The notes beneath the pieces were generated by a model, which did no database searches, was not told the DNA's origin, and saw nothing but the letters and a program-made list of their open reading frames with translations. From a virus, in IMG/VR virus record IMGVR_UViG_3300034104_003795, positions 26,370 to 90,369 of that record: a stretch of 64,000 bases of DNA; one strand, given 5' to 3'. This document shows, piece after piece, positions 2,045-63,850 of this stretch (the stretch's first letter is position 1; the number at the start of each line of letters is the position of its first letter). A program made the translations under genes and the position numbers.

Positions 2045-2129
2045 ATAAGTCATTGAAAATCAACAAATTATGAACTTTTTTGAGTTTTTTATAAATATTT
2101 GATTATCAACCACTTATAAGTCATTGACC
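2045..2129. promoter_or_regulatory. intergenic regulatory motifs: ATAAGTCATTGAAAATCAA (2045-2063) and TTGATTATCAACCACTTATAAGTCATTGACC (2098-2129)
   Basis: same palindromic TTGAT..ATCAA / TCATTGA..TCAATGA motif family recurs in >=9 intergenic regions of the window. Confidence 0.5.
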
Positions 2130-2151
2130 TTCAATAATTTATCTCAAAATA

Positions 2152-5300: not shown

Positions 5301-5640
5301 AAGACAAGCATTAGTATTACCTTGGGTTCATAGATTAGATTTGAATTTCACACAAGATGTTTATATCAAAGTTAAAGATACAAAACATACTTTAAGATTC
5401 ACAGCCGATATCTATAACTTCACAAACTTCATCAGCAAAGATTGGGGTGTAAACCAAACTCCAACAACTGTAACTCCACTTAACTTCGTAAGATTGGATA
5501 CTGATGGAAAAACTCCGGTATTCTCATTCCCTTATTTAGATGGAAGAAACAAAGTTCCGTTTACTGATTCATTCAGAGATAACGTAGGATTTAGTTCTCG
5601 CTACCAAATTCAATTGGGTGTAAGATATATCTTTAACTAA
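2380..5640 (+). CDS. TonB-dependent receptor-like outer-membrane protein (SusC/RagA-type, N-terminal carboxypeptidase-regulatory-like domain)
   Basis: 1086 aa; signal peptide MKKIGKFLLMVVITLLSFGASAQE; N-terminal 'GLVSDGKAGLAGVTIVATH...GRYNLPNLKIGGPYSIHVTSIGF' CarbopepD_reg-like; Gly/Asn/Thr/Tyr-rich beta-barrel-like body ending ...GVRYIFN. Confidence 0.7.
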   Translation: MKKIGKFLLMVVITLLSFGASAQETTSEIQGLVSDGKAGLAGVTIVATHQPTGTKYSTSSRTDGRYNLPNLKIGGPYSIHVTSIGFKAEHQDDITLLLGQSHKANFILKEASTTLKEVVVTSGQSKVFNSSRNGSQEIINRQLIERIPNVNRSWKDLVKLVPSQNNLSFGGLSSQLNNVTLDGANFNNSFGLGDGTLGGQTGAQPISLDAIEQIQVNVSPFDVKFGGFAGGSINTVTRSGKNQSFGSVYQFFKNKDLQGYKVGDVTLPKQDFTYDLKGFTAGGAIVKNKLFFFVNGEQESRMEPGTQWVASDANNTPNGINVSQAKAADLDALRKFLIEKYNYDPGAYQGYQYGSVSKRLTTKLDWNINSKNSFSLKYTLLRSSADIPASNSQSVNASNGRRPSTTSMPFYGGGYTINNNADIIIGELNTRFSNNASNKLQIGYTKLRDFRGTLTSGNFPQVDILDGNGQPFTTFGYERFTYGNVLNSDVIQLNNIFNLYKGKHEFTFGTQNSFKKYSNGFSPNYAGAFRFNSLADFYASAEGTKPAAAYDLSWSLTGDFPLVGPKNTELSLFAQDKFRVKDNLTITYGLRADYVSFADNFLYNPVVDTLSKFYDGVRLNTGLAPKNALQLSPRIGFNWDVNNDQTLQVRGGTGLFQGPPPFVWISNQASNSGMALFGSITNATGYMFNPDINAYRPTPTPGLSRAYSLNVTDPNYKFPQVWKSTLAVDKKVLGWTVTAEGTYIKNINATVFQNVALPSTGNITLSDGRTRFIKRSVYDATGTAQTSANPNIGNAIYMTNANVGYVLFGTLQVQRQFKNLAVNASYTRQTAKDGTINGSTAFTMWGARPTSTNPNNFEEGFSNNYLPHRIIGSFVYGKEFIKNTRTSIGLLYEASPNSPQSSLSYTYAGDLNNDGFNGNDLIFVPKDASQIKLTNASAVGGVADTRTQEELWNQLDAFISNNKYLSTRRGQFAERQALVLPWVHRLDLNFTQDVYIKVKDTKHTLRFTADIYNFTNFISKDWGVNQTPTTVTPLNFVRLDTDGKTPVFSFPYLDGRNKVPFTDSFRDNVGFSSRYQIQLGVRYIFN

Positions 5641-5708: not shown

Positions 5709-6248
5709 ATGAGTAAAATTATTAATCTATTCGGTGGACCTTCAATTGGTAAATCCACACAAGCGGCCGGTTTGTATTATGAAATGAAAAAGGCAGGATA
5801 CAATGTTGAGATGCCTTATGAGTTTCCAAAGTTACAAGCTTGGGAAAGAAATGTATATGCAGTTAAAGACCAATTTTATATTACCGCTAATCAACATCGT
5901 AACATTTCTCGTCTTTATGGACAGGTAGATTATATTATTGTTGATTCTCCAATTCTATTTGGATTAATTTATAAAAATCACTATAACGAAGAACCGGAAT
6001 ATCCTTCTATGTTTTATGGATATAAGTTTGACGAGTTTATTGTTGACTTGCATGGACATTACGATTCTCTTAATATAGTGTTAGATAGAGACCCTACAAT
6101 GTACCAAGAAGATGGAAGATTTCAAAATTTAGAAGAAAGTATAGAAATTGATAAAGAGATTGTTGGTATGCTTGAAAAATACAATGTAGAGTATTTTAAA
6201 GTACCAATCAATAATGATACAGCCAATATCATTATATCACTATTATAG
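5709..6248 (+). CDS. P-loop NTPase / putative nucleoside(-tide) kinase
   Basis: 179 aa; Walker A 'LFGGPSIGKST' at N-terminus; small kinase-like size. Confidence 0.5.
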   Translation: MSKIINLFGGPSIGKSTQAAGLYYEMKKAGYNVEMPYEFPKLQAWERNVYAVKDQFYITANQHRNISRLYGQVDYIIVDSPILFGLIYKNHYNEEPEYPSMFYGYKFDEFIVDLHGHYDSLNIVLDRDPTMYQEDGRFQNLEESIEIDKEIVGMLEKYNVEYFKVPINNDTANIIISLL

Positions 6249-15617: not shown

Positions 15618-15941
15618 TTACTTTGTGTTTAATGCGGGTTTGTGTTTCTTAACCAATTCCATCTCTCTAATGTGAGCGGCCTCTTTACCTCTTACTACAT
15701 CTAATACCGATACTTCATATACCAATTCTAAATCATCAATGTAGTTGAACATATCCATATACAATTTCCAATCCCAATTTTCCCTTCTCGCTCTACTAAA
15801 ATGTTTTTGTAACCGAACCTTTGCGGAACGAAGGAACGCCCGACCGGTTGAAGCCGTAATACCAATATATTCGTTACCATTGAAGGTATTTGTAATAAGG
15901 TATATAATATGATTCCTATCTGTACGTTTCTTCCTACTCAT
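15618..15941 (-). CDS. GIY-YIG domain endonuclease (free-standing, homing-endonuclease-like)
   Basis: 'HIIYLITNTFNGNEYIGIT' = GIY-x10-YIG motif near N-terminus; start set at internal ATG 15939-15941 (MSRKKRTD...) because the ORF-track start at 16073 is TTG and a promoter-like motif lies at 15963-15994. Confidence 0.6.
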   Translation of the reverse strand: MSRKKRTDRNHIIYLITNTFNGNEYIGITASTGRAFLRSAKVRLQKHFSRARRENWDWKLYMDMFNYIDDLELVYEVSVLDVVRGKEAAHIREMELVKKHKPALNTK

Positions 15942-15962
15942 ATCTAACTTAACTTTTATACC

Positions 15963-15994
15963 TAAAATTACGAAAATTAATTGAGACCACCAAA
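15963..15994 (-). promoter_or_regulatory. Bacteroidetes-type promoter candidate (minus orientation: -33 TTTG ... -7 TAATTTTA)
   Basis: +strand 'taaaattacgaaaattaattgagaccaccaaat'; same architecture as other minus-strand promoters in window. Confidence 0.35.
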
Positions 15995-16079
15995 TTCTAC
16001 CTAAAAGTTCTCGATTGGAAATCAACCCTTTATAGATATATTTTAACCCCATACATAAGTCATTGACCGTCAACCAAGT

Positions 16080-16400
16080 ATATATTAACCCCTTTCCGTT
16101 CCATTTTAACCCTATGAACCCCTAAACCATACCTTTACCCTACCCATCCAAAATAACCCCAAGAAACCCCCTCGAAATGATTCATATATACGGCTATACT
16201 GTACAACCCACTGGTACCCCAATCCTAACCTATTGATTGTCAATGAGTTATAACCAATTGATAATGAAGGGGTTATATATAGGGAATATCCACCATACCA
16301 ATAAGGACGGATACAATAAAGACAGGTACAATAGTAATAAAGACTATATACCATTAGGGGTAATATATAAAAATCTCGTATAGCGAAAAACTTGGGCTCG
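16080..16400. other. strongly strand-asymmetric (C/pyrimidine-rich on + strand; G-tract-rich on - strand) non-coding region
   Basis: runs such as ccctttccg..aacccctaaacc..cccaagaaaccccctcg; only Tyr-rich spurious ORFs; candidate ncRNA / G-quadruplex-forming / origin-like element. Confidence 0.35.
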
Positions 16401-16475
16401 ATACGAGAAGGGGTTAGGGGGCCCTCTAATAAAAAAATATTTTCTACGGTTCCAAGAAATTCAGTCCCCTACAGT

Positions 16476-16554
16476 CCCTATGGCGCCTACGTTCCAGAGG
16501 ATTGGTATGCATGTATATATGTGTGTCCTCTACAATCCTTATGGCGCCTACGTT
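16476..16554. repeat. 18-nt direct repeat CCCT(A/T)TGGCGCCTACGTT x2 (16476-16493, 16537-16554)
   Basis: seen directly; one mismatch; 43-nt spacer. Confidence 0.6.
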
Positions 16555-16729
16555 GCGTGAGATTGTGTTTTTGATTGAAGTAAAATCTTTTTTGTTAAGG
16601 TAGTCCGTCCATGTGGGTAAGTTATAGACACAAGAAAGGGGACCCGATTCCCAGTCAGTCCCCTCAGTCAACTTGCTCATTTAATAAACGTCAAATCACC
16701 AAACACTCCTCATTCAAGAGGATAATATT

Positions 16730-17913: not shown

Positions 17914-17934
17914 ATCTTATCATTTTTATTACAT

Positions 17935-18340
17935 AATAAAGATAGGGGTATTTTCCGAGCTGGCCAAACTTTTTGGGACTTATTTTAAAAATTCTTGCTT
18001 GAGAATCAATGACTTATGTAAGGGGTTGAATATCAATGACTTATAAAACGTTGGTTTTCAATGAGTTACGATTCAGTATAGATTAGGGGTATTTCACCCA
18101 GCCCCTACACAGATTCCAGAAGACCTGTCCAGAAAATGTGGATAACTTGATAAAAAACGGGTAAAACTACACAGAAAAATGTTCAAAATATAATATGTAG
18201 CATGTTAGTGTGTTAATTAGTATATTAACCCCACCAGTCCATCTGGGCCCAGGTCCCGCGGGACTTGTGGTACTTTGGGAACATCAGCGAGGTACATTGG
18301 GTACATTAGGGACATAAAAAAACCGGTCACATCGGACCGG
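17935..18340. other. long non-coding region: candidate replication origin / regulatory hub
   Basis: three TCAATGA(C/G)TTA(T/C) motifs (18006-18069), perfect DnaA box TGTGGATAA (18137-18145), adjacent GC-rich palindromes CTGGGCCCAG + GTCCCGCGGGAC (18243-18264), direct repeat GGTACATT(G/A)GG (18291-18315). Confidence 0.4.
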
Positions 18341-18341
18341 C
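18313..18341 (-). terminator. rho-independent terminator (minus strand)
   Basis: CCGGTC-acatcg-GACCGG hairpin preceded on + strand by A7 (T-run on minus). Confidence 0.55.
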
Positions 18342-18366
18342 TAATTATTTACTAACCTATCTTAAT

Positions 18367-20525: not shown

Positions 20526-21300
20526 ATAATAAGGGGTTTAAATTTTAATACTTAATGTGAACACCATTCTGGTCATCCACAACTTTTGGATACCCGATGT
20601 TCGGCTCTCTAATAACAAAAGCAACGAAAACGATACCAAACCAAAGGATTGTCTTTAACATAGGGGTTATTTAGAAGTTTTGAAATAGTACTCATAAACG
20701 GTTTTACCTAAAACATATCCAAAAAGTGAAACTCCACTTATAAGGACGAACTCTAAAATTGTAATGTGTGTCATATCTCTTAATCTTATATACCAAAACT
20801 ACACCTATTTTTTAATATATCCAAGCTTTTTATCCACTTTTTTTGGTCCCCAAAGCGTAACTCGTTGATACTCAATCAAGAATTTTTTGGTAAAAAGCTG
20901 GATCTTGGTAAGTCATTGATTATCAACCACTTGCGGCAGCCGGACTTAACATAATATAATTTATAGGCGATTTAGGGGTTTTTCCATCGTAACACATTGA
21001 TTATCAACGAGTTGTGGACTTAACATAATATCCGTTATTGGGGGTCTCACTCAAAGGACGTACCCCGCCCTCCACTCCCTAAAGTTACGAAAAATACCTG
21101 ATATTTCCAACAGGTGTGGATAACTTTTTAATTAGTTGATAATCAATTCGTTATATGCCATCTCTAAACAATCCAACCAGTCTGCCGTGTCACCATCGGT
21201 TTCCAGTTGTCTTTTTATTTGTTTGGCATAACTAACTAACTCTTCGTCCATACCTAATTGGACAGCCCGTTGAATCATTTGAAGTTCTGTAAGCATATAT
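20526..21300. other. 775-nt non-coding region: candidate origin/regulatory region
   Basis: ~45-nt imperfect direct repeat (20909-20960 / 20996-21040: CATTGATTATCAAC..TTG.GGACTTAACATAATAT), TTGATACTCAATCAAGAATTTTTT (20865-20890), TTGATAATCAA (21136-21146), perfect DnaA box TGTGGATAA (21115-21123), near-DnaA box TTATCCACT (20830-20838); only tiny hydrophobic ORFs. Confidence 0.4.
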
Positions 21301-21644: not shown

Positions 21645-22001
21645 TTACTTTCCTTTCTTTCTGTATGCACGTTTGACAAGTTTTTCGTTTTCCCTTGCTT
21701 GTATTTCGTATGGGTTATTTTTGTACCCGTATTTAATTTGATAATGATTGTACCAGCGGTATGACTGTTGTGCATGTGTCCATTCGTGTAGAATTGTTTT
21801 CTGAACCGCCACCATTCGTTTACATTGTGCTAAATTAATCCAAATTGTTTTTTCCCAATCGTAGTAACCACATTCGGCATCCTCTTTGGTATCCCAGTAA
21901 AAAGCAATTGCTCCACATCTGCTTTCACCCAGTTTTTCATGAGCCCAATTCCATAAACGGTTACAATCAAACTTCATTCCTATTTTATTACTTACACGCA
22001 T
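21645..22001 (-). CDS. putative zinc metallopeptidase-like protein (HExxH)
   Basis: 'ILHEWTHAQQSYRWYNHY'; paralog of 49120-49488 ('IVHEYTHYLQDPRWMTRYY'). Confidence 0.5.
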   Translation of the reverse strand: MRVSNKIGMKFDCNRLWNWAHEKLGESRCGAIAFYWDTKEDAECGYYDWEKTIWINLAQCKRMVAVQKTILHEWTHAQQSYRWYNHYQIKYGYKNNPYEIQARENEKLVKRAYRKKGK

Positions 22002-22039
22002 AAATATCTTTTAGATTTTAAATAGATTAATTAGATATA

Positions 22040-22071
22040 CAAATATACGAAAAAAAATCCATTCCACCAAA
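22040..22071 (-). promoter_or_regulatory. Bacteroidetes-type promoter candidate (minus orientation)
   Basis: +strand 'CAAATATAcgaaaaaaaatccattccacCAAA' = rc of TTTG-N20-TATATTTG. Confidence 0.45.
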
Positions 22072-22447
22072 TCTAATGCCAGTAAGGGTTACAGTAGTAT
22101 AGTGTATTAAATTCATATAAAAAAATTTTTTTGCGTGGAAAAGAATTCGTATATACCTCACATTATGACTGACATATACTAATTTTGACATCGTTTTTAT
22201 TGTGAAGTGGTAAAAAGTGGGATTTTGTGTTAAAGTGTGTTTTCATTGACACCCATCGGTTTTCAATTACTTTGTACTATCAAATTACATTTCATTAAAA
22301 ATTGTGACACTTACCCCTTAAAACGTAATTAAATTTTAGTAGTATCAAAATAGGGTTTTATCAAGTTTCAACGCAAGTCCCAACACCCTTTTGCTCACCA
22401 TCGTACTATCAATATTCGGACACAAAAAAGGGACCATTTAAGTATCC

Positions 22448-22642
22448 CTATTCTATTTCGTTTGTTGTACTATTGGTAGCGAGTAACTCGTATTTTTTAT
22501 TGATTAGGTTTCGTATTTGGGTACAAAGCTCGTATTCCTCAATCCCAATACATTCTTTTAATAACCATTGGAGACGTTGTATTTTATGTTGAAGTTCAAG
22601 GCGTTCCCTTTGTGTTAAACCGTGTGTGTGATTAGTATCCAT
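22448..22642 (-). CDS. hypothetical coiled-coil protein (64 aa)
   Basis: ORF only. Confidence 0.4.
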   Translation of the reverse strand: MDTNHTHGLTQRERLELQHKIQRLQWLLKECIGIEEYELCTQIRNLINKKYELLATNSTTNEIE

Positions 22643-22702
22643 AACATTGTAATTAATGCGGTTATCAATAGGAGCTCGGACCCATTACCTTTAATACGCC
22701 CC

Positions 22703-22894
22703 TTATTTATTCTTTTTGTTTTCATTTGGTTTATGTTCGTAATCCCATTCAGTTCCCCTACGGATTACGATATCTTTTTTGTTTTCTTTTGTACCGTATT
22801 CCTTACTATATACCAATATCTTTAAGGTTATGTAGAACCCTATAAAACCTATTAGAGCAAGGATATCAAAGAGGTTTATTTCATTACTCGGCAT
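22703..22894 (-). CDS. small membrane protein (63 aa)
   Basis: single TM helix; followed by further tiny hydrophobic ORFs 22895-23200. Confidence 0.4.
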   Translation of the reverse strand: MPSNEINLFDILALIGFIGFYITLKILVYSKEYGTKENKKDIVIRRGTEWDYEHKPNENKKNK

Positions 22895-23198
22895 CTTCTA
22901 TTCTATTGATTTGTTTTATTAGGTCTATTACACACCATACAGTCATTATACCTATTAACCCTATTACTATTCCCATAACTTATTTGTTTTTATTTTGTCT
23001 CCTTATTTCCCTATATATCAGTATTACTACTATTAACGTTATTAATCCCATTATCTATTAGTCTTTGTTTATATCCTTATGATTTTCGTTTATGTATCTG
23101 TCTACTATATACTGACCTATTCCATACCCTACTAACATTCCTATTACTATTACTACTATTAACATCTGTACTATAATTATTTTTATCTACGTCCGCTC

Positions 23199-36179: not shown

Positions 36180-36443
36180 CTAATTATGTTTCATACCTTT
36201 ACAAACACCATATCCCTGCCTTTGTGATAACTTATACAATCTATTTGCATCTTCCATCGGCATTATCTGAATTTCATTACCAGTTTTGTGGTTAGCTATT
36301 GCTACCCCACCAACTCTTTGTGTTGTACTACAATTCACACAACTTCTATAACCATACTTTGTGAATCGTAAAAGTGGCATATCATTACCACATTTAACAC
36401 AACTAGTCATTTCTAATTTGTTTACATTTACTTTCATATTCAT
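36180..36443 (-). CDS. C4 zinc-finger protein (TraR/DksA-like)
   Basis: 'CVKCGNDM...YGYRSCVNCS' CxxC-x17-CxxC. Confidence 0.4.
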   Translation of the reverse strand: MNMKVNVNKLEMTSCVKCGNDMPLLRFTKYGYRSCVNCSTTQRVGGVAIANHKTGNEIQIMPMEDANRLYKLSQRQGYGVCKGMKHN

Positions 36444-36926: not shown

Positions 36927-37138
36927 ATCTTTAAATTTTTAATACAACGTAAAGATACGAAAAAAGCCTGAAACGGCCAAATTTATTTTGAAGTTTTTTT
37001 GGGGAATTAGGGTAATTTAAGGTGATAAAACGTACAGAAACACCCCAAATTTCCCCTAAAATACACAAGTAAGGTGAATATACCACCCACCATATTAGGC
37101 CAGTTTATATGTATAACTCATTGAGAACCAATAAGTTA

Positions 37139-37164
37139 TAAGTCATTGATTATCAATCAGTTAT
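37139..37164. promoter_or_regulatory. TAAGTCATTGATTATCAATCAGTTAT palindromic motif
   Basis: member of recurrent TTGATNATCAA motif family; overlaps 3' end of 37153-38112 gene. Confidence 0.45.
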
Positions 37165-43570: not shown

Positions 43571-43653
43571 AATTTTAAATTTTATTACATAGTAAAACTA
43601 CAAAATTACATTGAGACCACCAAATTTTTAGGGTAAAATCTTTAAAAAAAGTT

Positions 43654-43721
43654 CATTGAAAATCAATGACTTATGGGTAATAAAATCAAATATTCGTAAC
43701 TCATTGATAATCAACGGATTA
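43654..43721. promoter_or_regulatory. perfect inverted repeat TCATTGAAAATCAATGA (43654-43670) plus CTCATTGATAATCAACGGATT (43701-43721)
   Basis: recurrent intergenic palindromic motif family. Confidence 0.5.
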
Positions 43722-48213: not shown

Positions 48214-48307
48214 AATTTTTAAGTTTTATTACATCGTAAAACTACAAAAAAGGCATGAAACTACCAAATATTTTAGGGGTTATTTTTAGGGGTAAAGACG
48301 TAACTAA

Positions 48308-48391
48308 TTGATTCTCAATCAAGAATTTTTTAGGGGGCGTAACTGATTGATTTTCAATGATTTATAACTCATTGATTATCAACGAGTTAGA
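48308..48391. promoter_or_regulatory. cluster of three palindromic motifs: ATTGATTCTCAATCAAGAATTTTTT, TGATTGATTTTCAATGATTTAT, CTCATTGATTATCAACGAGTT
   Basis: same three-part arrangement as 52375-52463; upstream of minus-strand operon. Confidence 0.5.
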
Positions 48392-52282: not shown

Positions 52283-52374
52283 ATTTTCAATCTTTATTAT
52301 ACCTAAAACTACAAAATAGTTACCAATCTACCAAATATTTAAGGGACTATTTTTACCCCTAAAAGCGTAACTAA

Positions 52375-52463
52375 TTGATTCTCAATCAAGAATTTTTGGG
52401 CAAAAAATAACCCATTGAAAATCAATGAGTTATGAATGTGTTGAAAATCAATGAGTTATGAAT
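52375..52463. promoter_or_regulatory. cluster of three palindromic motifs: ATTGATTCTCAATCAAGAATTTTT, CATTGAAAATCAATGAGTTATGAAT x2
   Basis: same motif family and same arrangement as 48308-48391. Confidence 0.5.
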
Positions 52464-58845: not shown

Positions 58846-58861
58846 ATTATTAAGTTGTTTG

Positions 58862-58942
58862 TGCCCCAAGAGAGATTCGAACTCTCACACCTCTCGATAT
58901 CAGTTCCTAAAACTGATGTGTCTACCGTTCCACCATCAGGGC
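58862..58942 (-). tRNA. tRNA-Leu (anticodon TAG)
   Basis: type-II cloverleaf; acceptor GCCCTGA/TTGGGGC, anticodon loop TTTAGGA, 13-nt variable arm, T-arm GAGAG-TTCGAAT-CTCTC. Confidence 0.8.
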
Positions 58943-59470
58943 ATATTTTTGTAATGATTTTAAAAATAATTCAATTCCTTTGTTGTGATTAGCTTCCCAA
59001 TCATCCGGATTACCGCTATCACTTACATATTTGTATGCAGTAAAATCAAATCCATAAATCTTACATACCTTTGCAATTGAGTATGCTTCCATATCACATA
59101 TTACAGATGGTGTGGTTTGAAAATGGTCTTGTGTATAACATATATTATATCCCAATCCATTGAAATCAATATTACCCATCAATATTTCATTATCAAATGG
59201 TGTTTTTGTTTTATCTGCAAATGGTCTAGCGTCCATATCGTTTTGGACAAATGTTTTACACTTAAATAAACTACCAACCATAACGGCATGCCCACCCGCA
59301 CTTCCGTAGTTTATAACTACTACATCTTTGGGGTCTAAATCTTTAAGAGTTTCAGTTGCTTTTATAGCCGCATTTACTTTTCCAACACCAGTATAAACAA
59401 CTTTAACACCTTCCGGTGCTTTTTCCTTTGGAAACTCATTTTCTAATGCAACAAATAATATAACGTTCAT
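58922..59470 (-). CDS. mtnN: 5'-methylthioadenosine/S-adenosylhomocysteine nucleosidase
   Basis: 'MNVILFVALENEF', 'VVYTGVGKVNAAIKATETL', 'VINYGSAGG', 'DMEAYSIAKVC'; start set at internal ATG 59470; 3' end overlaps tRNA-Leu by ~21 nt. Confidence 0.7.
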   Translation of the reverse strand: MNVILFVALENEFPKEKAPEGVKVVYTGVGKVNAAIKATETLKDLDPKDVVVINYGSAGGHAVMVGSLFKCKTFVQNDMDARPFADKTKTPFDNEILMGNIDFNGLGYNICYTQDHFQTTPSVICDMEAYSIAKVCKIYGFDFTAYKYVSDSGNPDDWEANHNKGIELFLKSLQKYALMVER

Positions 59471-59477
59471 AACAATA

Positions 59478-59565
59478 AGTATGCTGTTAGAGTAGGATTC
59501 GAACCATACAGGAGGAGATTCAAAAAGTAACATTTAGTGCTTGCAAGCTGGTGGTCAACCCCATA
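59478..59565 (-). other. tRNA-like fragment with degenerate T-arm (possible pseudo-tRNA)
   Basis: contains GGTTCGAATCC T-loop but T-stem pairs only 2 bp and no acceptor pairing found. Confidence 0.25.
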
Positions 59566-59661
59566 TTACTTTTCTATTTCTTTATCCTCGCCCACGAGAC
59601 GAGTGGGTGTGTTTGCCAGGTTATAACATAGATAACCAATTTCACCATCTAACAATTTTTG

Positions 59662-59746
59662 CGGAGAAACAGGGATTCGAACCCCAGAACCTGTTACAGT
59701 TGCCGGTTTTCAAGACCGGTGCATTCAACCACTCTGCCATTTCTCC
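59662..59746 (-). tRNA. tRNA-Ser (anticodon TGA)
   Basis: acceptor GGAGAAA/TTTCTCC, anticodon stem-loop CCGGT-CTTGAAA-ACCGG, long variable arm. Confidence 0.85.
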
Positions 59747-59763
59747 GTTAAGTACTCTAATAA

Positions 59764-60027
59764 TTAGAATACTTTTTCTTCGCTTTTACCGTCTAAACTA
59801 TTTTCGGTATCGGCATGCTTTCTTCTAGCTTCTTCTGCTTCTTTATATATTCTAACCCAAGTTAAGAATATATCTACTGGCGCTAATATCCAACACATAA
59901 TCAATAGAGCCATAGAATCTAATCCAGGTGAAATACCTAATCCACCAGCCATTACATCTCTATTCCATTTTCGTATTGACATTATAACACAATAGATGAA
60001 ACACATTACATAATAAGTAATAAACAT
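59764..60027 (-). CDS. small membrane protein (87 aa) within tRNA island
   Basis: ORF with 2-3 hydrophobic helices; uncertain. Confidence 0.3.
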   Translation of the reverse strand: MFITYYVMCFIYCVIMSIRKWNRDVMAGGLGISPGLDSMALLIMCWILAPVDIFLTWVRIYKEAEEARRKHADTENSLDGKSEEKVF

Positions 60028-60046
60028 AACATTTGTTTTTAATGAG

Positions 60047-60118
60047 TTACCCGAACTGGACTCGAACCAATACGAACAGAATCAAAATCTGTGATGCTAA
60101 CCATTACATCATCGGGCA
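60047..60118 (-). tRNA. tRNA-Gln (anticodon TTG)
   Basis: U1-A72 acceptor TGCCCGA/TCGGGTA, anticodon stem-loop ACAGA-TTTTGAT-TCTGT. Confidence 0.8.
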
Positions 60119-60254
60119 ATAATCTCAAGCATTCTACTTCCCGCAGTGCGAAATTGTATCTTACTTAGCCCATCGCTAGCGGTATGGGTACTTGAGTTTT
60201 AGTAATTGAAAAACATCTATTCTTCTTGCGGCCTAATACTAACAGGCCCACTTG

Positions 60255-60327
60255 AGCGAGAGACCAGGCTCGAACTGGCCACCTGAAGCTTGGAAGGCTA
60301 CCGCTCTACCAAATGAGCTACTCTCGC
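60255..60327 (-). tRNA. tRNA-Gly (anticodon TCC)
   Basis: acceptor GCGAGAG/CTCTCGC, D-arm GCTC-ATTTGGTA-GAGC, anticodon loop CTTCCAA. Confidence 0.85.
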
Positions 60328-60385
60328 TAAAGAGTGTAGTGGAAGATATCATTCCTGCAGTTACTACACGTTTTATCTGCTTTGG

Positions 60386-60458
60386 AGCGGAAGACCAGGC
60401 TCGAACTGGCCACCCTGACCTTGGCAAGGTCATGCTCTACCAAATGAGCTACTTCCGC
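60386..60458 (-). tRNA. tRNA-Gly (anticodon GCC)
   Basis: acceptor GCGGAAG/CTTCCGC, anticodon stem-loop TGACC-TTGCCAA-GGTCA. Confidence 0.85.
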
Positions 60459-60515
60459 AATTAATAGGTGAGGCTATTACCATCATTAAGTCTTTAATGC
60501 TTTAGACACCTATTG

Positions 60516-60589
60516 TGGACCCACTTGGAATCGAACCAAGCACCTAATGATTATGAGTCATTTGCTCTAACCGAATGAGCTATAGGTCC
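60516..60589 (-). tRNA. tRNA-Met (anticodon CAT; elongator/initiator/Ile2 not distinguishable)
   Basis: acceptor GGACCTA/TGGGTCC, anticodon stem-loop AATGA-CTCATAA-TCATT. Confidence 0.8.
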
Positions 60590-60593
60590 GATG

Positions 60594-60667
60594 TGGAGAA
60601 GAAGGGATTCGAACCCATGACCCCCTGCGTGCAAGGCAGGTGCTCTAGCCAACTGAGCTACTTCCCC
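60594..60667 (-). tRNA. tRNA-Ala (anticodon TGC)
   Basis: acceptor GGGGAAG/CTTCTCC with G3:U70 identity pair, anticodon stem-loop CCTGC-CTTGCAC-GCAGG. Confidence 0.85.
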
Positions 60668-60678
60668 ATAAGTGAACG

Positions 60679-60763
60679 TACCGGGGATGGGATTCGAACC
60701 CACACGAGCGATTTCTGCTCAAAAGATTTTAAGTCTTTCATGTCTACCATTCCATCACCCCGG
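60679..60763 (-). tRNA. tRNA-Leu (anticodon TAA)
   Basis: acceptor GCCGGGG/CCCCGGT, anticodon loop CTTAAAA, long variable arm GAGC-AGAAATC-GCTC. Confidence 0.85.
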
Positions 60764-60789
60764 CGGCGATACTATTTTTAATAACTATA

Positions 60790-60831
60790 CAAAGATACGA
60801 ATAATAATTTAATTATCCAAATCCTTTTTTA
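60790..60831 (-). promoter_or_regulatory. Bacteroidetes-type promoter candidate driving minus-strand tRNA cluster
   Basis: +strand 'CAAAGATAcgaataataatttaattatCCAAAT'. Confidence 0.4.
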
Positions 60832-61258
60832 TATTATATATTTTAACCCTTCTGATTTTAGTTCCACTCTCATCAGGATTAATTAATATATCAATTTTTT
60901 TTCTCCACCTCTTTGCCATCAAATCTCTGACAGTATAAACACCATCTAATTTTCCAGCACCCTTCACTCTTACTTTTTGTCCAAACTTATACTTTCGTTT
61001 CAGGTCTCTACTAATCGCTATTACCTTTTGTTTCTTTGGATTAAGACTATCCAACTTATAACCACTTGCGGTAATTAAGGGAGTTGAATCGGTTTGGCCG
61101 GCGGATACCGTATATGTTGTAACCGTAACTACATCATAAGGTATGTGTTTCTTTTCTATCATTATATCCGCAACTTCTTCCTCACTCATTTCGGAGTCAA
61201 TCATATTATGTGGAATAAACATAATAACAGTTAAGAATAAAAGAATAACTTTTCTCAT
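60809..61258 (-). CDS. 3D-domain (MltA/YuiC-like) putative peptidoglycan hydrolase, secreted
   Basis: signal peptide MRKVILLFLTVIMFIP; 'VTVTTYTVSAGQTDSTPLITASGYKL' and 'GVYTVRDLMAKRWRKKIDIL' match 3D-domain pattern. Confidence 0.6.
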   Translation of the reverse strand: MRKVILLFLTVIMFIPHNMIDSEMSEEEVADIMIEKKHIPYDVVTVTTYTVSAGQTDSTPLITASGYKLDSLNPKKQKVIAISRDLKRKYKFGQKVRVKGAGKLDGVYTVRDLMAKRWRKKIDILINPDESGTKIRRVKIYNIKKDLDN

Positions 61259-61276
61259 AACTTATTTTTTATTTAG

Positions 61277-61350
61277 TGATTCGGAAAGGATTCGAACCTT
61301 TGACCCCAAACTTAGAAGGTTTGTGCTCTATCCAGCTGAGCTACCGAACC
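61277..61350 (-). tRNA. tRNA-Arg (anticodon TCT)
   Basis: acceptor GGTTCGG/CCGAATC, anticodon stem-loop CAAAC-CTTCTAA-GTTTG. Confidence 0.85.
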
Positions 61351-61456
61351 ATATAGTAAGAGAGATACTACGTCTAATATCTCAATGTTTCTACCGGCCG
61401 TCTATGGAATATGCGCACTGACCATAAACTAAACTTTCGTCTGCTCTTACTACTTG

Positions 61457-61527
61457 CGGAAAGTACGGGAATCGAACCCGTCACATTGCCGTGACAAGGC
61501 AACATTATACCGATTAACTAACTCTCC
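61457..61527 (-). tRNA. tRNA-Asp (anticodon GTC)
   Basis: acceptor GGAGAGT/ACTTTCC, anticodon stem-loop TTGCC-TTGTCAC-GGCAA, 4-nt variable loop. Confidence 0.8.
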
Positions 61528-61556
61528 AAATTACATTATCGTTCTTTAACTAATTT

Positions 61557-61814
61557 TTATTTTTTATTGTTAGTTAATTTTTGTTCTAATTTATCCAATC
61601 TCGAATCTAATTGAGAAAAGATGTGATTTTCTAATTCATCTGCTCTACGATTAAAGTCAGTTTGATTTCTATCAACTTGACGATACAAATCTTCGCCGAT
61701 GCTTTCTAATTCTTTTTCTATTTTTCTTGCCTTAACAAGCCCAATAACAGCAACTATCGACACTGCGATAACCACCACTACAGACATTCCTAAAACGAAT
61801 GATAATATTTCCAT
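61557..61814 (-). CDS. small membrane-anchored coiled-coil protein (85 aa)
   Basis: N-terminal TM 'FVLGMSVVVVIAVSIVAVIGLV' + charged helical region. Confidence 0.4.
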   Translation of the reverse strand: MEILSFVLGMSVVVVIAVSIVAVIGLVKARKIEKELESIGEDLYRQVDRNQTDFNRRADELENHIFSQLDSRLDKLEQKLTNNKK

Positions 61815-61851
61815 AATTTATTTCTCCTATATGTCAAAGAACGATAATGTG

Positions 61852-61924
61852 AGCCCAAGACAAGAATCGAACTTGCGACCTACTGATTACAAATCAGTTG
61901 CTCTACCTGCTGAGCTACTCGGGC
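61852..61924 (-). tRNA. tRNA-Thr (anticodon TGT)
   Basis: acceptor GCCCGAG/CTTGGGC, anticodon stem-loop ACTGA-TTTGTAA-TCAGT. Confidence 0.85.
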
Positions 61925-62024
61925 GTTTAGGAAAGTAGAAGATGGGTGCGTGGACATCTACTTTTATGATTGGCATTTCTAACCGATTTATGCATACTAA
62001 TATGCTTATCCCAATCAACCTTTG

Positions 62025-62096
62025 TACTCTGTACGGGATTCGAACCCGTATTACATCCGTGAAAGGGATGTGACCTAACCCTTAGTCGAACAGAGC
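62025..62096 (-). tRNA. tRNA-Glu (anticodon TTC)
   Basis: acceptor GCTCTGT/ACAGAGT, 3-bp D-stem with 10-nt loop, anticodon stem-loop CATCC-CTTTCAC-GGATG. Confidence 0.8.
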
Positions 62097-62114
62097 GTTA
62101 ATGTTAATGTTATA

Positions 62115-62146
62115 CAAATATACGAATAATATCTGATATAACCAAA
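62115..62146 (-). promoter_or_regulatory. Bacteroidetes-type promoter candidate driving minus-strand tRNA cluster
   Basis: +strand 'CAAATATAcgaataatatctgatataaCCAAAT'. Confidence 0.4.
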
Positions 62147-62309
62147 TCTATTTTAACAATAGGTTTTATATTTTTTTATACCACCTTTCAAACGTCTTAT
62201 ACATATCATACAAGCTCCGTTTTCTCTTATTATTTTTCTTATTCGGTATAACTTATTACTTCGTCTATTAATTTCAAACTTATCATTTTTCATAATGTCC
62301 AATTTAATG

Positions 62310-62398
62310 CGGAGAATGTTGGATTCGAACCAACGGTACAACTTTCATCGTACAACGGTTTAGCAAACCGGCCCCATCGTCCACTCGGGCAATTCTCC
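62310..62398 (-). tRNA. tRNA-Ser (anticodon GCT)
   Basis: acceptor GGAGAAT/ATTCTCC, anticodon loop TTGCTAA, long variable arm, T-arm GTTGG-TTCGAAT-CCAAC. Confidence 0.8.
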
Positions 62399-62400
62399 GT

Positions 62401-62475
62401 TGGGGTGTAAGGACGGTATCGAACCGTCTTATCTAGCTCCACAAACTAGCGCATCACCTTAATGCTTCAAACACC
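62401..62475 (-). tRNA. tRNA-His (anticodon GTG) with G-1 and genomically encoded CCA
   Basis: extra 5' G pairing with C73; anticodon stem-loop CTAGT-TTGTGGA-GCTAG; 3' ...CTTACAC-C-CCA. Confidence 0.8.
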
Positions 62476-62481
62476 ATTTGG

Positions 62482-62550
62482 TTGCGGGGCCAGGAATCGA
62501 ACCTGAATATCTGGCTTATGAGACCAAACGGATTACCTAATCTCCCCACA
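62482..62550 (-). tRNA. second CAT-anticodon tRNA (Met/fMet/Ile2) with shortened D-arm
   Basis: acceptor TGTGGGG/CCCCGCA, anticodon loop CTCATAA, T-arm TCAGG-TTCGATT-CCTGG; D-arm only ~13 nt. Confidence 0.55.
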
Positions 62551-62558
62551 ATATCAAG

Positions 62559-62629
62559 AGGCGAGTACAAGATTCGAACTTGTGTAAAAGCTTTTGCAGA
62601 GCTCCATATAACCACTCTAACAACTCGCC
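62559..62629 (-). tRNA. tRNA-Cys (anticodon GCA)
   Basis: acceptor GGCGAGT/ACTCGCC, anticodon stem-loop GAGCT-CTGCAAA-AGCTT, T-arm ACAAG-TTCGAAT-CTTGT. Confidence 0.75.
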
Positions 62630-62635
62630 ATTTTG

Positions 62636-62708
62636 TAGCCCCTAAAGGATTCGAACCCATACTCCGAAGTCCGTAGCTTCGTGTGCTAATCCATTACACC
62701 AAAGAGCC
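62636..62708 (-). tRNA. tRNA-Arg (anticodon ACG)
   Basis: acceptor GGCTCTT/AGGGGCT (three G:U pairs), anticodon stem-loop CGAAG-CTACGGA-CTTCG. Confidence 0.7.
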
Positions 62709-62712
62709 ATAG

Positions 62713-62783
62713 CACCGGTGGAAGGACTCGAACCCTCACAAACAGTTTTGGAGACTGGTATGCTACCATTACACTACACCGAT
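62713..62783 (-). tRNA. tRNA-Trp (anticodon CCA)
   Basis: A1-U72 acceptor ATCGGTG/CACCGGT (as in E. coli tRNA-Trp), anticodon loop CTCCAAA. Confidence 0.8.
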
Positions 62784-62789
62784 ATATTG

Positions 62790-62863
62790 TTGGAATAAAA
62801 AGAATCGAACTTTTAACCTTCCGCGTATCAGACGGATGCTCTAACCAATTGAGCTATATTCCA
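62790..62863 (-). tRNA. tRNA-Ile (anticodon GAT)
   Basis: acceptor TGGAATA/TATTCCA, D-arm GCTC-AATTGGTTA-GAGC, anticodon loop CTGATAC. Confidence 0.8.
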
Positions 62864-62911
62864 ATTTTGCACTTCCTATTTCCCAATGCTGTGTAGTGCG
62901 AACCATATCGG

Positions 62912-62985
62912 TTGGGAATGCAGGATTCGAACCTACGGCCTCTAGCTCCCAAAGCTAGCGCGATACCTGACTACGCTAATTCCCA
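62912..62985 (-). tRNA. tRNA-Pro (anticodon TGG)
   Basis: acceptor TGGGAAT/ATTCCCA, anticodon stem-loop CTAGC-TTTGGGA-GCTAG. Confidence 0.8.
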
Positions 62986-63060
62986 ATGTGATAAGTTTCC
63001 ATCCTATCGTATAATGTGTACATCATTATTTTAACTCAATATTAAGTTCGGAACTTTTTG

Positions 63061-63134
63061 TGACCCCTAATGGATTCGAACCATTGACTCCTATATTAAA
63101 AGTATAGTGCTCTAACCAACTGAGCTAAGAGGTC
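63061..63134 (-). tRNA. tRNA-Lys (anticodon TTT)
   Basis: acceptor GACCTCT/AGGGGTC, anticodon stem-loop CTATA-CTTTTAA-TATAG. Confidence 0.85.
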
Positions 63135-63174
63135 TGACTTTTGTCATACTTGTCACTTTCCATAGTATTTGTTT

Positions 63175-63384
63175 TTAATTGTTATCTTCTAATTCTATTT
63201 TACAATATTCGTCCAATGATATTTTATCAAATGTTATCCATTGTCCATTTCCAAAATCTACTGCGAACTTACCATCTTCTGGTAGATACGCAGTTACTAT
63301 TCCTTTACTACCCATTTCAATTTTTCCTTTTGGTGTCACCAACTCTTTTATTAATGTACCAACTCCATGATTAAAATCTGCCAT
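63175..63384 (-). CDS. hypothetical protein (69 aa) inside tRNA island
   Basis: ORF not overlapping tRNAs. Confidence 0.4.
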   Translation of the reverse strand: MADFNHGVGTLIKELVTPKGKIEMGSKGIVTAYLPEDGKFAVDFGNGQWITFDKISLDEYCKIELEDNN

Positions 63385-63406
63385 AATTGTTTTTTTAATT
63401 GTTAAG

Positions 63407-63479
63407 TGGTAATGAGTGGTATCGAACCACTTCCTAAAGATTTTCAGTCTTTCGCTTCTACCTAGTTAGCTTCATCACC
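63407..63479 (-). tRNA. tRNA-Phe (anticodon GAA)
   Basis: acceptor GGTGATG/CATTACC, anticodon stem-loop AAAGA-CTGAAAA-TCTTT. Confidence 0.8.
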
Positions 63480-63483
63480 GGTG

Positions 63484-63565
63484 TTGGGGTAGACGGACTC
63501 GAACCGCCGAACTCAAATGAGAGCTGATTTACAGTCAGCCGCAATTGCCACTATGCGATACCCCA
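63484..63565 (-). tRNA. tRNA-Tyr (anticodon GTA)
   Basis: acceptor TGGGGTA/TACCCCA, anticodon stem-loop GCTGA-CTGTAAA-TCAGC, 14-nt variable arm. Confidence 0.8.
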
Positions 63566-63670
63566 ATGGCGTTCCATATAACTCACATTTGATAGCCCTA
63601 TCGTGCTACTCACTCAATCCTACAACAGCTTTCAACTGAGAGATTGTAGGAATGTGTATGGAACATGTTG

Positions 63671-63745
63671 TGGAAGTTACAGGATTCGAACCTATGACCC
63701 TCACGGTGTAAACGTGATGCTCTAAACCAACTGAGCTAAACTTCC
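63671..63745 (-). tRNA. tRNA-Val (anticodon TAC)
   Basis: acceptor GGAAGTT/AACTTCC, anticodon stem-loop TCACG-TTTACAC-CGTGA. Confidence 0.85.
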
Positions 63746-63778
63746 TACTTATCCAATATGTCAAAGAACTTAATCTTG

Positions 63779-63850
63779 CGCTCCCTCTTGGATTCGAACC
63801 AAGGACCAACAGATTAACAGTCTGCTGCGCTACCGCTGCGCCAAAGGAGC
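63779..63850 (-). tRNA. tRNA-Asn (anticodon GTT)
   Basis: acceptor GCTCCTT/AGGGAGC, anticodon stem-loop GCAGA-CTGTTAA-TCTGT. Confidence 0.85.

What the first reader, a model, noticed from the sequence alone, without database searches (positions are those of the whole stretch)
43654..43721. Recurrent palindromic intergenic motif family TCATTGAAAATCAATGA / TTGAT(T/A)ATCAA / TTGATTCTCAATCAA
Variants of the same inverted repeat (half-site TTGAT/ATCAA, often extended to TCATTGA...TCAATGA and followed by (C/G)TTAT) occur at 2045-2129, 16054-16075, 18006-18069, 20865-21014, 21136-21146, 37139-37164, 43654-43721, 48308-48391 and 52375-52463. They usually come in clusters of two or three, 60-200 nt upstream of the first gene of a minus-strand operon and distal to the sigma-A-like promoter. 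This is the signature of an operator for a dimeric DNA-binding regulator, phage- or host-encoded. It marks a regulon of roughly nine transcription units.
Basis: seen in the sequence. Interest (0 to 1): 0.6.

Follow-up and report, generated by a model that had tools for sequence, protein, structure and literature searches.

The report
Phage promoter-upstream palindromic protein-site arrays
A 25-29 bp palindrome repeated head-to-tail just upstream of one class of promoters in a large uncultured phage is a real, phage-specific binding-site array for an unidentified dimeric DNA-binding protein, and each half of it reads exactly like the E. coli IHF consensus.

Summary
The window holds 19 full and 4 half-variant copies of a palindrome, YRTAAsTnRTTGAwwwTCAAYnAsTTAYR. 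They lie in ten clusters, all between genes; the core alone occurs 14 times against 0.9 expected. Adjacent copies abut at 25 bp (sometimes 27). A tandem signature finds 101 stretches on about 86 viral contigs. It finds only 2 chance-like hits in 596 Gb of bacterial genomes, and a composition-matched control finds none.

The two arms do not covary and most copies would fold weakly, so this is a protein site and not a hairpin. Arrays start at the upstream gene's stop codon. The last site sits a fixed 60 nt (69 nt when inverted) before the -7 box of a Bacteroidota-type promoter, so sites centre near -71, -96 and -121. These promoters mostly have an off-consensus -7 box (TAnnTTTA).

Each half-site matches the IHF consensus WATCAANNNNTTR in the correct register. 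My best reading is upstream activating or architectural arrays for a homodimeric DNA-bending protein. The binder was not found, and a MarR-type winged-helix repressor remains a live rival. The kind of element is known; this variant appears to be undescribed.

The parts
2046..2141 (.). Array of three full palindromic sites (centres 2058, 2104, 2129). It lies between the minus-strand promoter at 1990-2021 and the plus-strand promoter at 2152-2183.
16056..16080 (.). Single full site (centre 16068), 98 nt upstream of the -7 box at 15963-15970.
16226..16275 (.). Abutting pair of sites (centres 16238, 16263; 25 bp apart) in a long stretch without called genes.
17992..18068 (-). Array of two full sites (18056, 18031) followed by a promoter-proximal half-variant (18004) in the orientation common in relatives. 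Its centre is 60 nt from the -7 box.
20858..21014 (-). Two full sites (21002, 20921; 81 bp apart) plus an inverted half-variant (20870), 69 nt from the -7 box TAGTTTTG at 20794-20801.
21129..21153 (.). Single site (centre 21141).
37114..37163 (.). Abutting pair (centres 37126, 37151), 169 nt upstream of the -7 box at 36950-36957. It lies ahead of the operon that includes the DNA ligase gene.
43649..43721 (.). The finding's own locus: two full sites (centres 43661, 43709; 48 bp apart). The proximal centre is 61 nt from the -7 box TAGTTTTA at 43593-43600.
48301..48389 (-). Two abutting full sites (48377, 48352) plus an inverted half-variant (48313), 69 nt from the -7 box.
52368..52458 (-). Two full sites (52446, 52420; 26 bp apart) plus an inverted half-variant (52380), 69 nt from the -7 box.
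43593..43624 (-). Array-linked promoter of the Bacteroidota type: TTTGG, about 20 nt, TAGTTTTA. This is one example. The equivalent promoters are at 1990-2021, 15963-15994, 17937-17968, 20794-20828, 36950-36981, 48237-48268 and 52304-52335.

Best explanation
The palindromes are binding sites for a sequence-specific homodimeric DNA-binding protein.

Layout. Two or three sites are laid head-to-tail, one dimer per 25 bp, immediately upstream of one class of promoters in a large phage. The phage is probably T4-like and infects Bacteroidota. In the commonest layout the sites centre at about -71, -96 and -121 relative to the start site. The promoter-proximal site keeps the consensus only in its distal half and runs into an A/T tract.

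Proposed mechanism. The occupied array bends or wraps the upstream DNA and helps host RNA polymerase use promoters whose -7 box is off consensus (TAnnTTTA rather than TAnnTTTG) and that often lack a -33 TTG. This would define a co-regulated, probably delayed-early or middle, set of transcription units.

Binder. My best guess is an IHF/HU-type (DNABII) homodimer, phage-encoded or taken from the host. Each half-site is the IHF consensus WATCAANNNNTTR, and the two halves are arranged exactly about the dyad that IHF uses.

Shown here:
- The motif is real, intergenic and phage-specific.
- Its spacing is constant and the arms do not covary.
- Its distance to the promoter is fixed.
- It is associated with one promoter class.

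Inferred, with my own estimates:
- Protein binding: about 0.85.
- Activation rather than repression: about 0.6.
- DNABII family: about 0.4.
For: 1. Enrichment. The core occurs 14 times against 0.87 expected. There are 23 matrix hits against 0.25 in shuffles, and 1 hit in 1.23 Mb of unrelated phage DNA.

2. Phage specificity. The tandem signature gives 101 stretches on about 86 IMG/VR contigs. A composition-matched palindromic control gives 0. Bacterial genomes totalling 596 Gb give 2 hits, and these lack the rest of the motif.

3. Array structure. There are 330 sites in 141 arrays. Spacing is 25 bp in 137 cases and 27 bp in 21. One array of 141 lies inside an ORF, and 110 lie between co-directional genes.

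4. Not a hairpin. Arm complementarity at the variable positions is no higher than chance (z from -2.8 to +0.5 at positions 6-9; position 7 pairs in 28% of sites). The median folding energy is -4 kcal/mol, against -13.5 for a perfect palindrome.

5. Promoter coupling. The last site centre lies exactly 60 nt from the T of the -7 box in 25 distinct promoter sequences, including several unrelated spacer sequences. It is 69 nt in the inverted layout.

6. Promoter class.
- In the window, 7 of 9 TAnnTTTA promoters carry arrays, against 1 of 12 TAnnTTTG promoters (Fisher p = 0.002).
- In relatives, 78 of 88 array-linked boxes end in A.
- A broader test gives p = 0.012.
- 46 of 66 array-linked boxes lack a TTG at 19-21 nt.

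7. IHF register.
- All nine specified positions of WATCAANNNNTTR are met in each half.
- The TT and AA steps lie 9 bp apart about the central W.
- This agrees with the proline-intercalation steps 9 bp apart (PMC1874591) and with T44 as the middle of TTR (bioRxiv 10.1101/382655).
Against: - No DNABII gene was found in the window, in about 17 kb of flanks, or in about 0.9 Mb of array-flanking DNA from relatives (phmmer; profile-profile comparison of 603 families).
- Precomputed Pfam hits show no HU, MarR or HTH family there.
- Canonical IHF sites are asymmetric, and IHF covers about 34 bp, more than the 25 bp available per site here.
- IHF proper is a proteobacterial heterodimer (my own knowledge).
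- The identical core TTGATTATCAA is the centre of the operator of FabT, a MarR-family repressor. The core alone therefore does not identify the protein family.
- The direction of regulation is inferred only from position and promoter quality. No transcription data exist for this uncultured phage.
- Many of the 60-nt cases come from related phages and are not fully independent.
Confidence: 0.5

Rival explanations
1. The arrays are classical operators. A phage-encoded winged-helix (MarR-like) or other helix-turn-helix dimer binds cooperatively to the tandem sites and shuts off a set of early promoters later in infection.
For: - The sites are palindromic, tandem and abutting, which is typical of cooperative repressors.
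- The core TTGATTATCAA is identical to the centre of the FabT (MarR family) consensus ANTTTGATTATCAAATT.
- From general knowledge of MarR-DNA structures, recognition helices near the dyad and wings in flanking minor grooves could read TTGA at +-3.5 and TAA at +-11.
- Site 2129 lies only 23 nt from the -33 element of the plus-strand promoter at 2152-2183.
Against: - Sites lie 60-150 nt upstream of the -7 box and do not overlap the -33 or -7 elements.
- Array-linked promoters are the weaker-looking ones.
- The flanks differ from FabT: position +-6 is reversed and the motif is 12 bp longer.
- No MarR or HTH family appears in precomputed Pfam hits over about 85 kb.
Confidence: 0.27
2. The arrays are PeSL-like mobile regulatory cassettes. 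Here the palindromes would be the stem-loop or terminator part of a terminator-promoter unit, whose main consequence is recombination and gene shuffling in the hyperplastic regions of a T4-like genome.
For: - The position is the same as for PeSLs: intergenic, among small variable genes, directly upstream of an early-type promoter with an A/T-rich stretch (PMC4122927).
- Near-identical array-plus-promoter units recur at 43.6, 48.3 and 52.3 kb.
- The flanks carry genes typical of T4-like phages: PhoH, Hsp20, a UvsW-like helicase and Kyano_Gp96.
- Arrays begin at the upstream stop codon.
- One site (52420) passes a terminator-like pattern.
Against: - There is no covariation and most copies fold weakly.
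- Only 1 of 23 sites looks like a terminator.
- The sequence itself is conserved across about 86 contigs, whereas PeSL stems vary in sequence.
- Homology breakpoints between the window and relatives are not enriched near arrays: 3 of 75 within 100 nt, against 3.7% expected.
- True GC-rich terminators, where present, lie upstream of the arrays.
Confidence: 0.1
3. The arrays belong to a replication origin or another non-transcriptional DNA-protein assembly, such as iterons or a packaging or partition site.
For: - The sites resemble IHF sites.
- A perfect DnaA-box sequence (TTATCCACA) lies inside a repeated 26-nt element near the arrays at 18137 and 21115.
Against: - There are ten dispersed clusters in 64 kb, each tied to a promoter at a fixed distance.
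- DnaA-box-like sequences are not enriched overall: 31 against 29.6 expected.
Confidence: 0.04

Closest known systems
IHF binding sites (consensus WATCAANNNNTTR; lambda H' site)
   Same: - Each half-site meets all nine specified consensus positions.
- The TT and AA steps are 9 bp apart about the W, which is the register of the two proline kinks.
- TTR lies four bases beyond.
- The half-variant sites carry the consensus in one half and an A/T tract in the other, reminiscent of H'.
   Different: - Full sites are two-fold symmetric, which implies a homodimer; IHF is a heterodimer on asymmetric sites.
- Sites abut at 25 bp, whereas IHF protects about 34 bp.
- The host is probably Bacteroidota.
- No DNABII gene was found.
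PeSL (promoter-early stem-loop) cassettes of T4-like phages (PMC2839356, PMC4122927)
   Same: Both are repeated composite elements in intergenic spaces among small variable genes. Both have a palindrome just upstream of an A/T-rich stretch and an early-type promoter.
   Different: - PeSL stems are short, GC-containing hairpins of variable sequence that are read as terminators.
- Here a fixed 25-29 bp sequence is repeated in tandem, without covariation.
- The promoters are of the Bacteroidota type.
- No enrichment of rearrangement breakpoints was seen.
phi29 p4 (with p6) at the A3 and A2 promoters (PMC1904284, PMC3100819)
   Same: - A phage dimer binds a long inverted repeat upstream of a promoter.
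- It reads A/T tracts indirectly and works with a DNA-bending protein (PMC1904284, PMC3100819).
- From my own knowledge, p6 binds about every 24 bp. That compares with 25 bp per site here.
   Different: - The p4 site is AACTTTTT, 15 bp, AAAATGTT, an unrelated sequence.
- There is one regulatory region per genome rather than many.
- The hosts are Firmicutes.
FabT (MarR family) operator ANTTTGATTATCAAATT
   Same: The central 11 bp, TTGATTATCAA, are identical.
   Different: - The FabT site is 17 bp and has different flanks.
- It lacks the outer TAA/TTA blocks.
- It acts as a repressor site at promoters of bacterial fatty-acid genes.
Upstream Fis sites plus UP element at rrn P1, and IHF-stimulated phage early promoters (Mu Pe, lambda pL); from my own knowledge
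   Same: Several sites for a DNA-bending dimer lie at about -70 and further upstream, next to an A/T-rich element, and boost a strong promoter.
   Different: The proteins, site sequences and spacings differ. Those sites are not abutting tandem palindromes.

Membership tests
IHF/DNABII-type binding site | Match to WATCAANNNNTTR | tested here: met
   In 255 unique sites:
- Position 0 is A or T in 254.
- +1 is A in 186.
- +2 to +5 are TCAA in 244-255.
- +10 and +11 are T in 233 and 240.
- +12 is A in 240 and G in 13.
The left half mirrors this.
IHF/DNABII-type binding site | Two kinkable steps 9 bp apart, centred on the protein dyad | tested here: met
   The TT step at -5/-4 and the AA step at +4/+5 are invariant. 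The register was checked against PMC1874591 and bioRxiv 10.1101/382655.
IHF/DNABII-type binding site | Asymmetric site: consensus in one half only, often an A-tract in the other | tested here: not met
   Full sites are symmetric. Only the promoter-proximal half-variants are asymmetric and have an A/T tract.
IHF/DNABII-type binding site | A DNABII protein available to bind it | tested here: inconclusive
   None was found in the window, its flanks or about 0.9 Mb of array-flanking DNA. The rest of the roughly 274 kb genome and the host could not be read.
IHF/DNABII-type binding site | Protein-induced sharp bend and minor-groove footprint | not testable with these tools
   This needs gel-shift, footprinting or structural work.
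PeSL cassette of T4-like phages | Intergenic, among variable small genes, directly upstream of an early promoter | tested here: met
PeSL cassette of T4-like phages | Stable stem-loop acting as a terminator | tested here: not met
   There is no arm covariation. The median folding energy is -4 kcal/mol. One of 23 sites is terminator-like.
PeSL cassette of T4-like phages | Association with insertions, deletions and exchanges between related genomes | tested here: not met
   Three of 75 homology breakpoints lie within 100 nt of a site, against 3.7% expected. This is a crude test.
MarR/FabT-type operator | Palindrome TTGA-N3-TCAA at the centre | tested here: met
MarR/FabT-type operator | Site overlaps or abuts the core promoter, and a regulator gene lies nearby | tested here: not met
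   Sites lie 60-150 nt upstream of the -7 box. No MarR or HTH Pfam hit appears in about 85 kb.
Intrinsic terminator | GC-rich hairpin followed by a run of T | tested here: not met
   Only site 52420 qualifies. Stems are AT-rich and mismatched.

The most novel reading that the evidence does not exclude
A widespread clade of large uncultured phages of Bacteroidota uses a homodimeric HU/IHF-family protein with true sequence specificity. The protein could be phage-encoded or host-derived. It would assemble one dimer per 25 bp into a phased, sharply bent nucleoprotein array that acts as an enhancer for a dedicated middle-type promoter class. Functionally this would be a counterpart of the T4 MotA/AsiA switch, built on DNA architecture rather than on sigma appropriation.
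Probability: 0.25. Interest if true: 0.75.

Novelty: new variant of a known kind. Interest (0 to 1): 0.55.

Why it matters
- The motif gives a simple sequence handle on gene regulation in an abundant but uncultured phage lineage. One of its proteins has more than 120 close variants in metagenomes, on contigs up to 274 kb.
- It separates two promoter classes in these genomes and predicts which transcription units are co-regulated.
- It predicts a specific, testable property of an unknown regulator: a two-fold symmetric dimer that reads TAA-N4-TTGA.
- If the binder is an HU/IHF-type homodimer, this would be a natural symmetrised IHF site used as a tandem enhancer. That would bear on how DNABII proteins gain sequence specificity.
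- The arrays plus promoters are also compact candidate parts for expression tools in Bacteroidota.

Tried and rejected
- RNA or DNA hairpin or terminator reading: rejected on covariation and folding energy.
- Chance in AT-rich DNA: rejected.
- Host-genome element: the tandem signature is essentially absent from 185,579 bacterial species genomes. The two hits lack the rest of the motif.
- Search for the binder:
  - phmmer with HU, IHF and TF1 against window and locus proteins found nothing.
  - Profile-profile comparison of 603 protein families against a DNABII alignment gave a best probability of 37% over 11 columns.
  - PHROG and Pfam scans of the first genes after arrays gave nothing useful.
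- Adjacency analysis of conserved families near arrays showed synteny only and no obvious regulator.
- Cultured relatives: there is none at the DNA level. Proteins are below 46% identity. The only cultured-phage match to an array is a weak three-site cluster in the crAss-like phage csAssE-Sib at 1900-1955.
- Literature search for the motif found only FabT and unrelated primers. No paper on Bacteroidota phage promoters with such repeats was found.
- PeSL-like recombination hot spot: no breakpoint enrichment.
- DnaA boxes or an origin: no enrichment.
- Host identification through the TonB-dependent receptor returned only phage-like metagenome variants without names.

Full report
**Context.** The window is 31% G+C and is packed with about 140 mostly small minus-strand ORFs. 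It carries 25 tRNA genes at 58.8-63.9 kb. Recognisable genes include:
- a SusC-like TonB-dependent receptor
- a UvsW-like helicase
- an ATP-dependent DNA ligase
- a tryptophan halogenase

The 10-kb flanks add PhoH, Hsp20, heme oxygenase, a bilin reductase, AdoMet decarboxylase and a Kyano_Gp96 homologue. No cultured phage is similar at the DNA level, and protein identities stay below 46%. The same phage recurs in many metagenomes on contigs up to 274 kb. I read it as the variable early region of a large, probably T4-like, uncultured phage.

**Promoters.** The promoters are plainly of the Bacteroidota type. About twenty copies of TTTG(G), roughly 20 nt, TAnnTTT(G/A) lie 15-30 nt before start codons. 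This matches the published Bacteroides motif TTG, 19-21 nt, TANNTTTG. Sigma-70-type promoters are not enriched, at 85 against 98.5 expected.

**The observation.**
- The core TTGAWWWTCAA occurs 14 times against 0.87 expected.
- The conserved variant TTGATTCTCAATCAAGAATTTTT occurs four times against none expected.
- Aligning the copies shows a longer palindrome, YRTAAsTnRTTGAwwwTCAAYnAsTTAYR. It has two conserved blocks per half: TAA at -12..-10 and TTGA at -5..-2.
- A weight matrix finds 19 full and 4 half-variant sites in ten clusters and nothing else above background. Shuffles give 0.25 sites at the same threshold. Unrelated phage DNA totalling 1.23 Mb gives one.
- All sites lie between genes.
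- Adjacent sites abut with centres 25-27 bp apart and share the junction TTATAA.

**Distribution elsewhere.** A signature for two abutting sites (22 specified bases) finds 101 stretches on about 86 IMG/VR contigs, many of 100-290 kb. A palindromic control of the same composition finds none. One genome from each of 185,579 bacterial and archaeal species yields two hits, and these lack the rest of the motif.

In the viral loci there are 330 sites in 141 arrays, mostly of two or three sites. Spacing is 25 bp in 137 cases and 27 bp in 21. One array lies inside an ORF, and 110 lie between co-directional genes. Fifty-nine of the 101 loci share at least one protein with the window. The element is therefore a conserved, phage-specific feature of a broad group of AT-rich large phages. 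Some further contigs carry many single or 48-bp-spaced sites (L045, L049).

**Protein site or hairpin.** Across 255 unique sites, complementarity between the arms at the variable positions is no greater than chance:
- Position 7 pairs in 28% of sites against 27% expected.
- Positions 6, 8 and 9 pair slightly less than expected.

The median predicted folding energy of a site is -4 kcal/mol, against -13.5 for the perfect palindrome, and 62% of sites are weaker than -5. Only one window site resembles an intrinsic terminator. The symmetry therefore lies in the consensus, as expected for a two-fold symmetric protein, and not in base pairing.

**Relation to genes and promoters.** Arrays begin at or within a few bases of the upstream gene's stop codon and end about 80-110 nt before the next start codon. 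The distance from the centre of the last site to the T of the -7 box is exactly 60 nt in 25 distinct promoter sequences, including several with unrelated spacers. Smaller groups fall at 50-53, 56 and 67-70 nt. A group at 84-86 nt arises where the degenerate last site was not scored.

The last site is a half-variant. Its distal half is consensus (TAACTnATTGA). Its proximal half reads TCAATCGAGAATTTTT and runs into an A/T tract. In the window one half-variant has this orientation (18004, 60 nt). Three are inverted (20870, 48313, 52380), each 69 nt from the box. With the -7 box starting near -11 or -12, sites centre at about -71, -96 and -121. A fixed position outside the core promoter suggests functional coupling to RNA polymerase from upstream.

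**Two promoter classes.**
- In the window, seven of nine promoters whose -7 box ends in A (TAnnTTTA) carry arrays. One of twelve with the canonical TAnnTTTG does (p = 0.002).
- Canonical, array-less promoters drive the tRNA clusters, the receptor gene and several others.
- In relatives, 78 of 88 array-linked boxes end in A.
- A noisier genome-wide comparison gives p = 0.012, and 46 of 66 array-linked boxes lack a TTG at the expected spacing.

Arrays on the weaker-looking promoters fit activation better than repression, but this remains an inference.

**What might bind.** Each half-site, read outward from the centre, is W-A-T-C-A-A-N4-T-T-R, the E. coli IHF consensus, met at all nine specified positions. 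The conservation profile is also similar: weak W, moderate A, strong TCAA, strong TT, and purine.

In the IHF-H' complex the two proline-intercalated ApA steps are 9 bp apart (PMC1874591), and T44 is the middle of TTR (bioRxiv 10.1101/382655). This places the pseudo-dyad on the W. In the palindrome the invariant TT and AA steps are 9 bp apart about the central W, and TTR lies at +10..+12. The palindrome is therefore the IHF site made two-fold symmetric in the correct register, as a homodimeric HU/IHF-family protein would require. This is a resemblance, not a demonstration.

Points against, or leaving it open:
- No DNABII gene was found in the window, its flanks or about 0.9 Mb of array-flanking DNA.
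- Scans of IMG/VR for DNABII genes were capped and uninformative.
- The identical 11-bp core is the centre of the operator of FabT, a MarR-family repressor. From general knowledge, winged-helix geometry could also read an inner major-groove block and an outer minor-groove block.
- No MarR or HTH family appears in the precomputed Pfam hits either.

The family of the binder is therefore unresolved. I put DNABII at about 0.4, winged-helix at about 0.25, and something else for the remainder.

**Comparison with known systems.** The closest anatomical analogue is the PeSL cassette of T4-like phages. It also has a palindrome just upstream of an A/T-rich stretch and an early promoter, in the variable regions (PMC4122927). 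The present element fails the defining stem-loop feature. In a crude test it shows no excess of homology breakpoints: 3 of 75 against 3.7% expected. True GC-rich terminators, where present, precede the arrays.

Functionally it resembles three arrangements:
- phi29 p4, which binds an upstream inverted repeat
- phi29 p6, which binds about every 24 bp (own knowledge)
- Fis or IHF sites upstream of strong promoters (own knowledge)

I found no description of this motif in the searchable literature.

**Verdict.** The finding is real and statistically secure. It is a new variant of a known kind of element: tandem upstream binding-site arrays that mark a promoter class in an abundant uncultured phage lineage. 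Its likeness to a symmetrised IHF site is striking and testable. The binder and the sign of regulation remain to be established.

Noticed in passing
window 1990-62146 (promoters listed): There are two promoter flavours. Canonical TTTGG-N20-TAnnTTTG promoters lack arrays and drive the tRNA clusters, the receptor gene, the gene at 5709 and others. TAnnTTTA promoters carry arrays. Array-linked promoters also share a conserved start region, such as ACnATGTAATAAAA.
   Followed up: partly
window 2380-5640 (+): A phage-borne SusC-like TonB-dependent receptor (CarboxypepD_reg + Plug + beta-barrel) is transcribed opposite to its neighbours from a canonical promoter abutting the array at 2046-2141. More than 120 variant clusters at 85% identity or above exist in metagenomes, so the lineage is abundant.
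   Followed up: partly
window 58861-63850 (-): A cluster of 25 tRNA genes. Canonical promoters lie at 60790 and 62115, and a single palindromic site lies just beyond the window end (L230 position 5524).
   Followed up: partly
window 15942-16729, 17914-18365, 20526-21131, 21776-23198: Unusually long stretches with few or no called genes and higher G+C (0.37), rich in GGGG runs. They hold arrays, a GC-rich terminator near 18300-18330 and possible extra -7 boxes. No Rfam family matches them. They may encode small RNAs.
   Followed up: no
window 18128-18153 and 21106-21131: A repeated 26-nt element contains a perfect DnaA-box sequence (TTATCCACA on the minus strand), each copy near an array. DnaA-like boxes are not enriched overall.
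   Followed up: partly
window 37034-37057 (-): The element AGGGGAAATTTGGGGTGTTTCTGT lies between the array at 37114-37163 and its promoter. It is conserved at the same place in relatives about 77% identical (L126, L131, L198). Its function is unknown.
   Followed up: no
window 36180-36443 (-): An 87-aa ORF with a C4 zinc-ribbon pattern (CxxC...CxxC) resembles DksA/TraR-type RNA-polymerase-binding proteins. It lies in the operon directly downstream of an array. Pfam hits were only marginal.
   Followed up: no
window 15618-16052 (-): An ORF gives weak PHROG matches to GIY-YIG or other homing endonucleases, next to the single site at 16068.
   Followed up: no
L230 693-1818 and 2227-2667; L232 14983-18601: The flanks of the window carry heme oxygenase, a ferredoxin-dependent bilin reductase, AdoMet decarboxylase, PhoH, NT5C and Hsp20. 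These auxiliary genes are best known from T4-like cyanophages, yet here they sit in a phage with Bacteroidota-type promoters.
   Followed up: no
L178 (IMGVR_UViG_3300042691_025170), L153/L147/L157: Some relatives carry sites with a changed inner block in one half: CTGA or TTCA instead of TTGA. This could be decay or a shifted specificity.
   Followed up: no
OR575929.1 (phage csAssE-Sib) 1900-1955: The only cultured or named phage with an array-like cluster is this crAss-like gut phage. It has three weak sites 27-28 bp apart. It also gives the best helicase match to the window (37%).
   Followed up: partly
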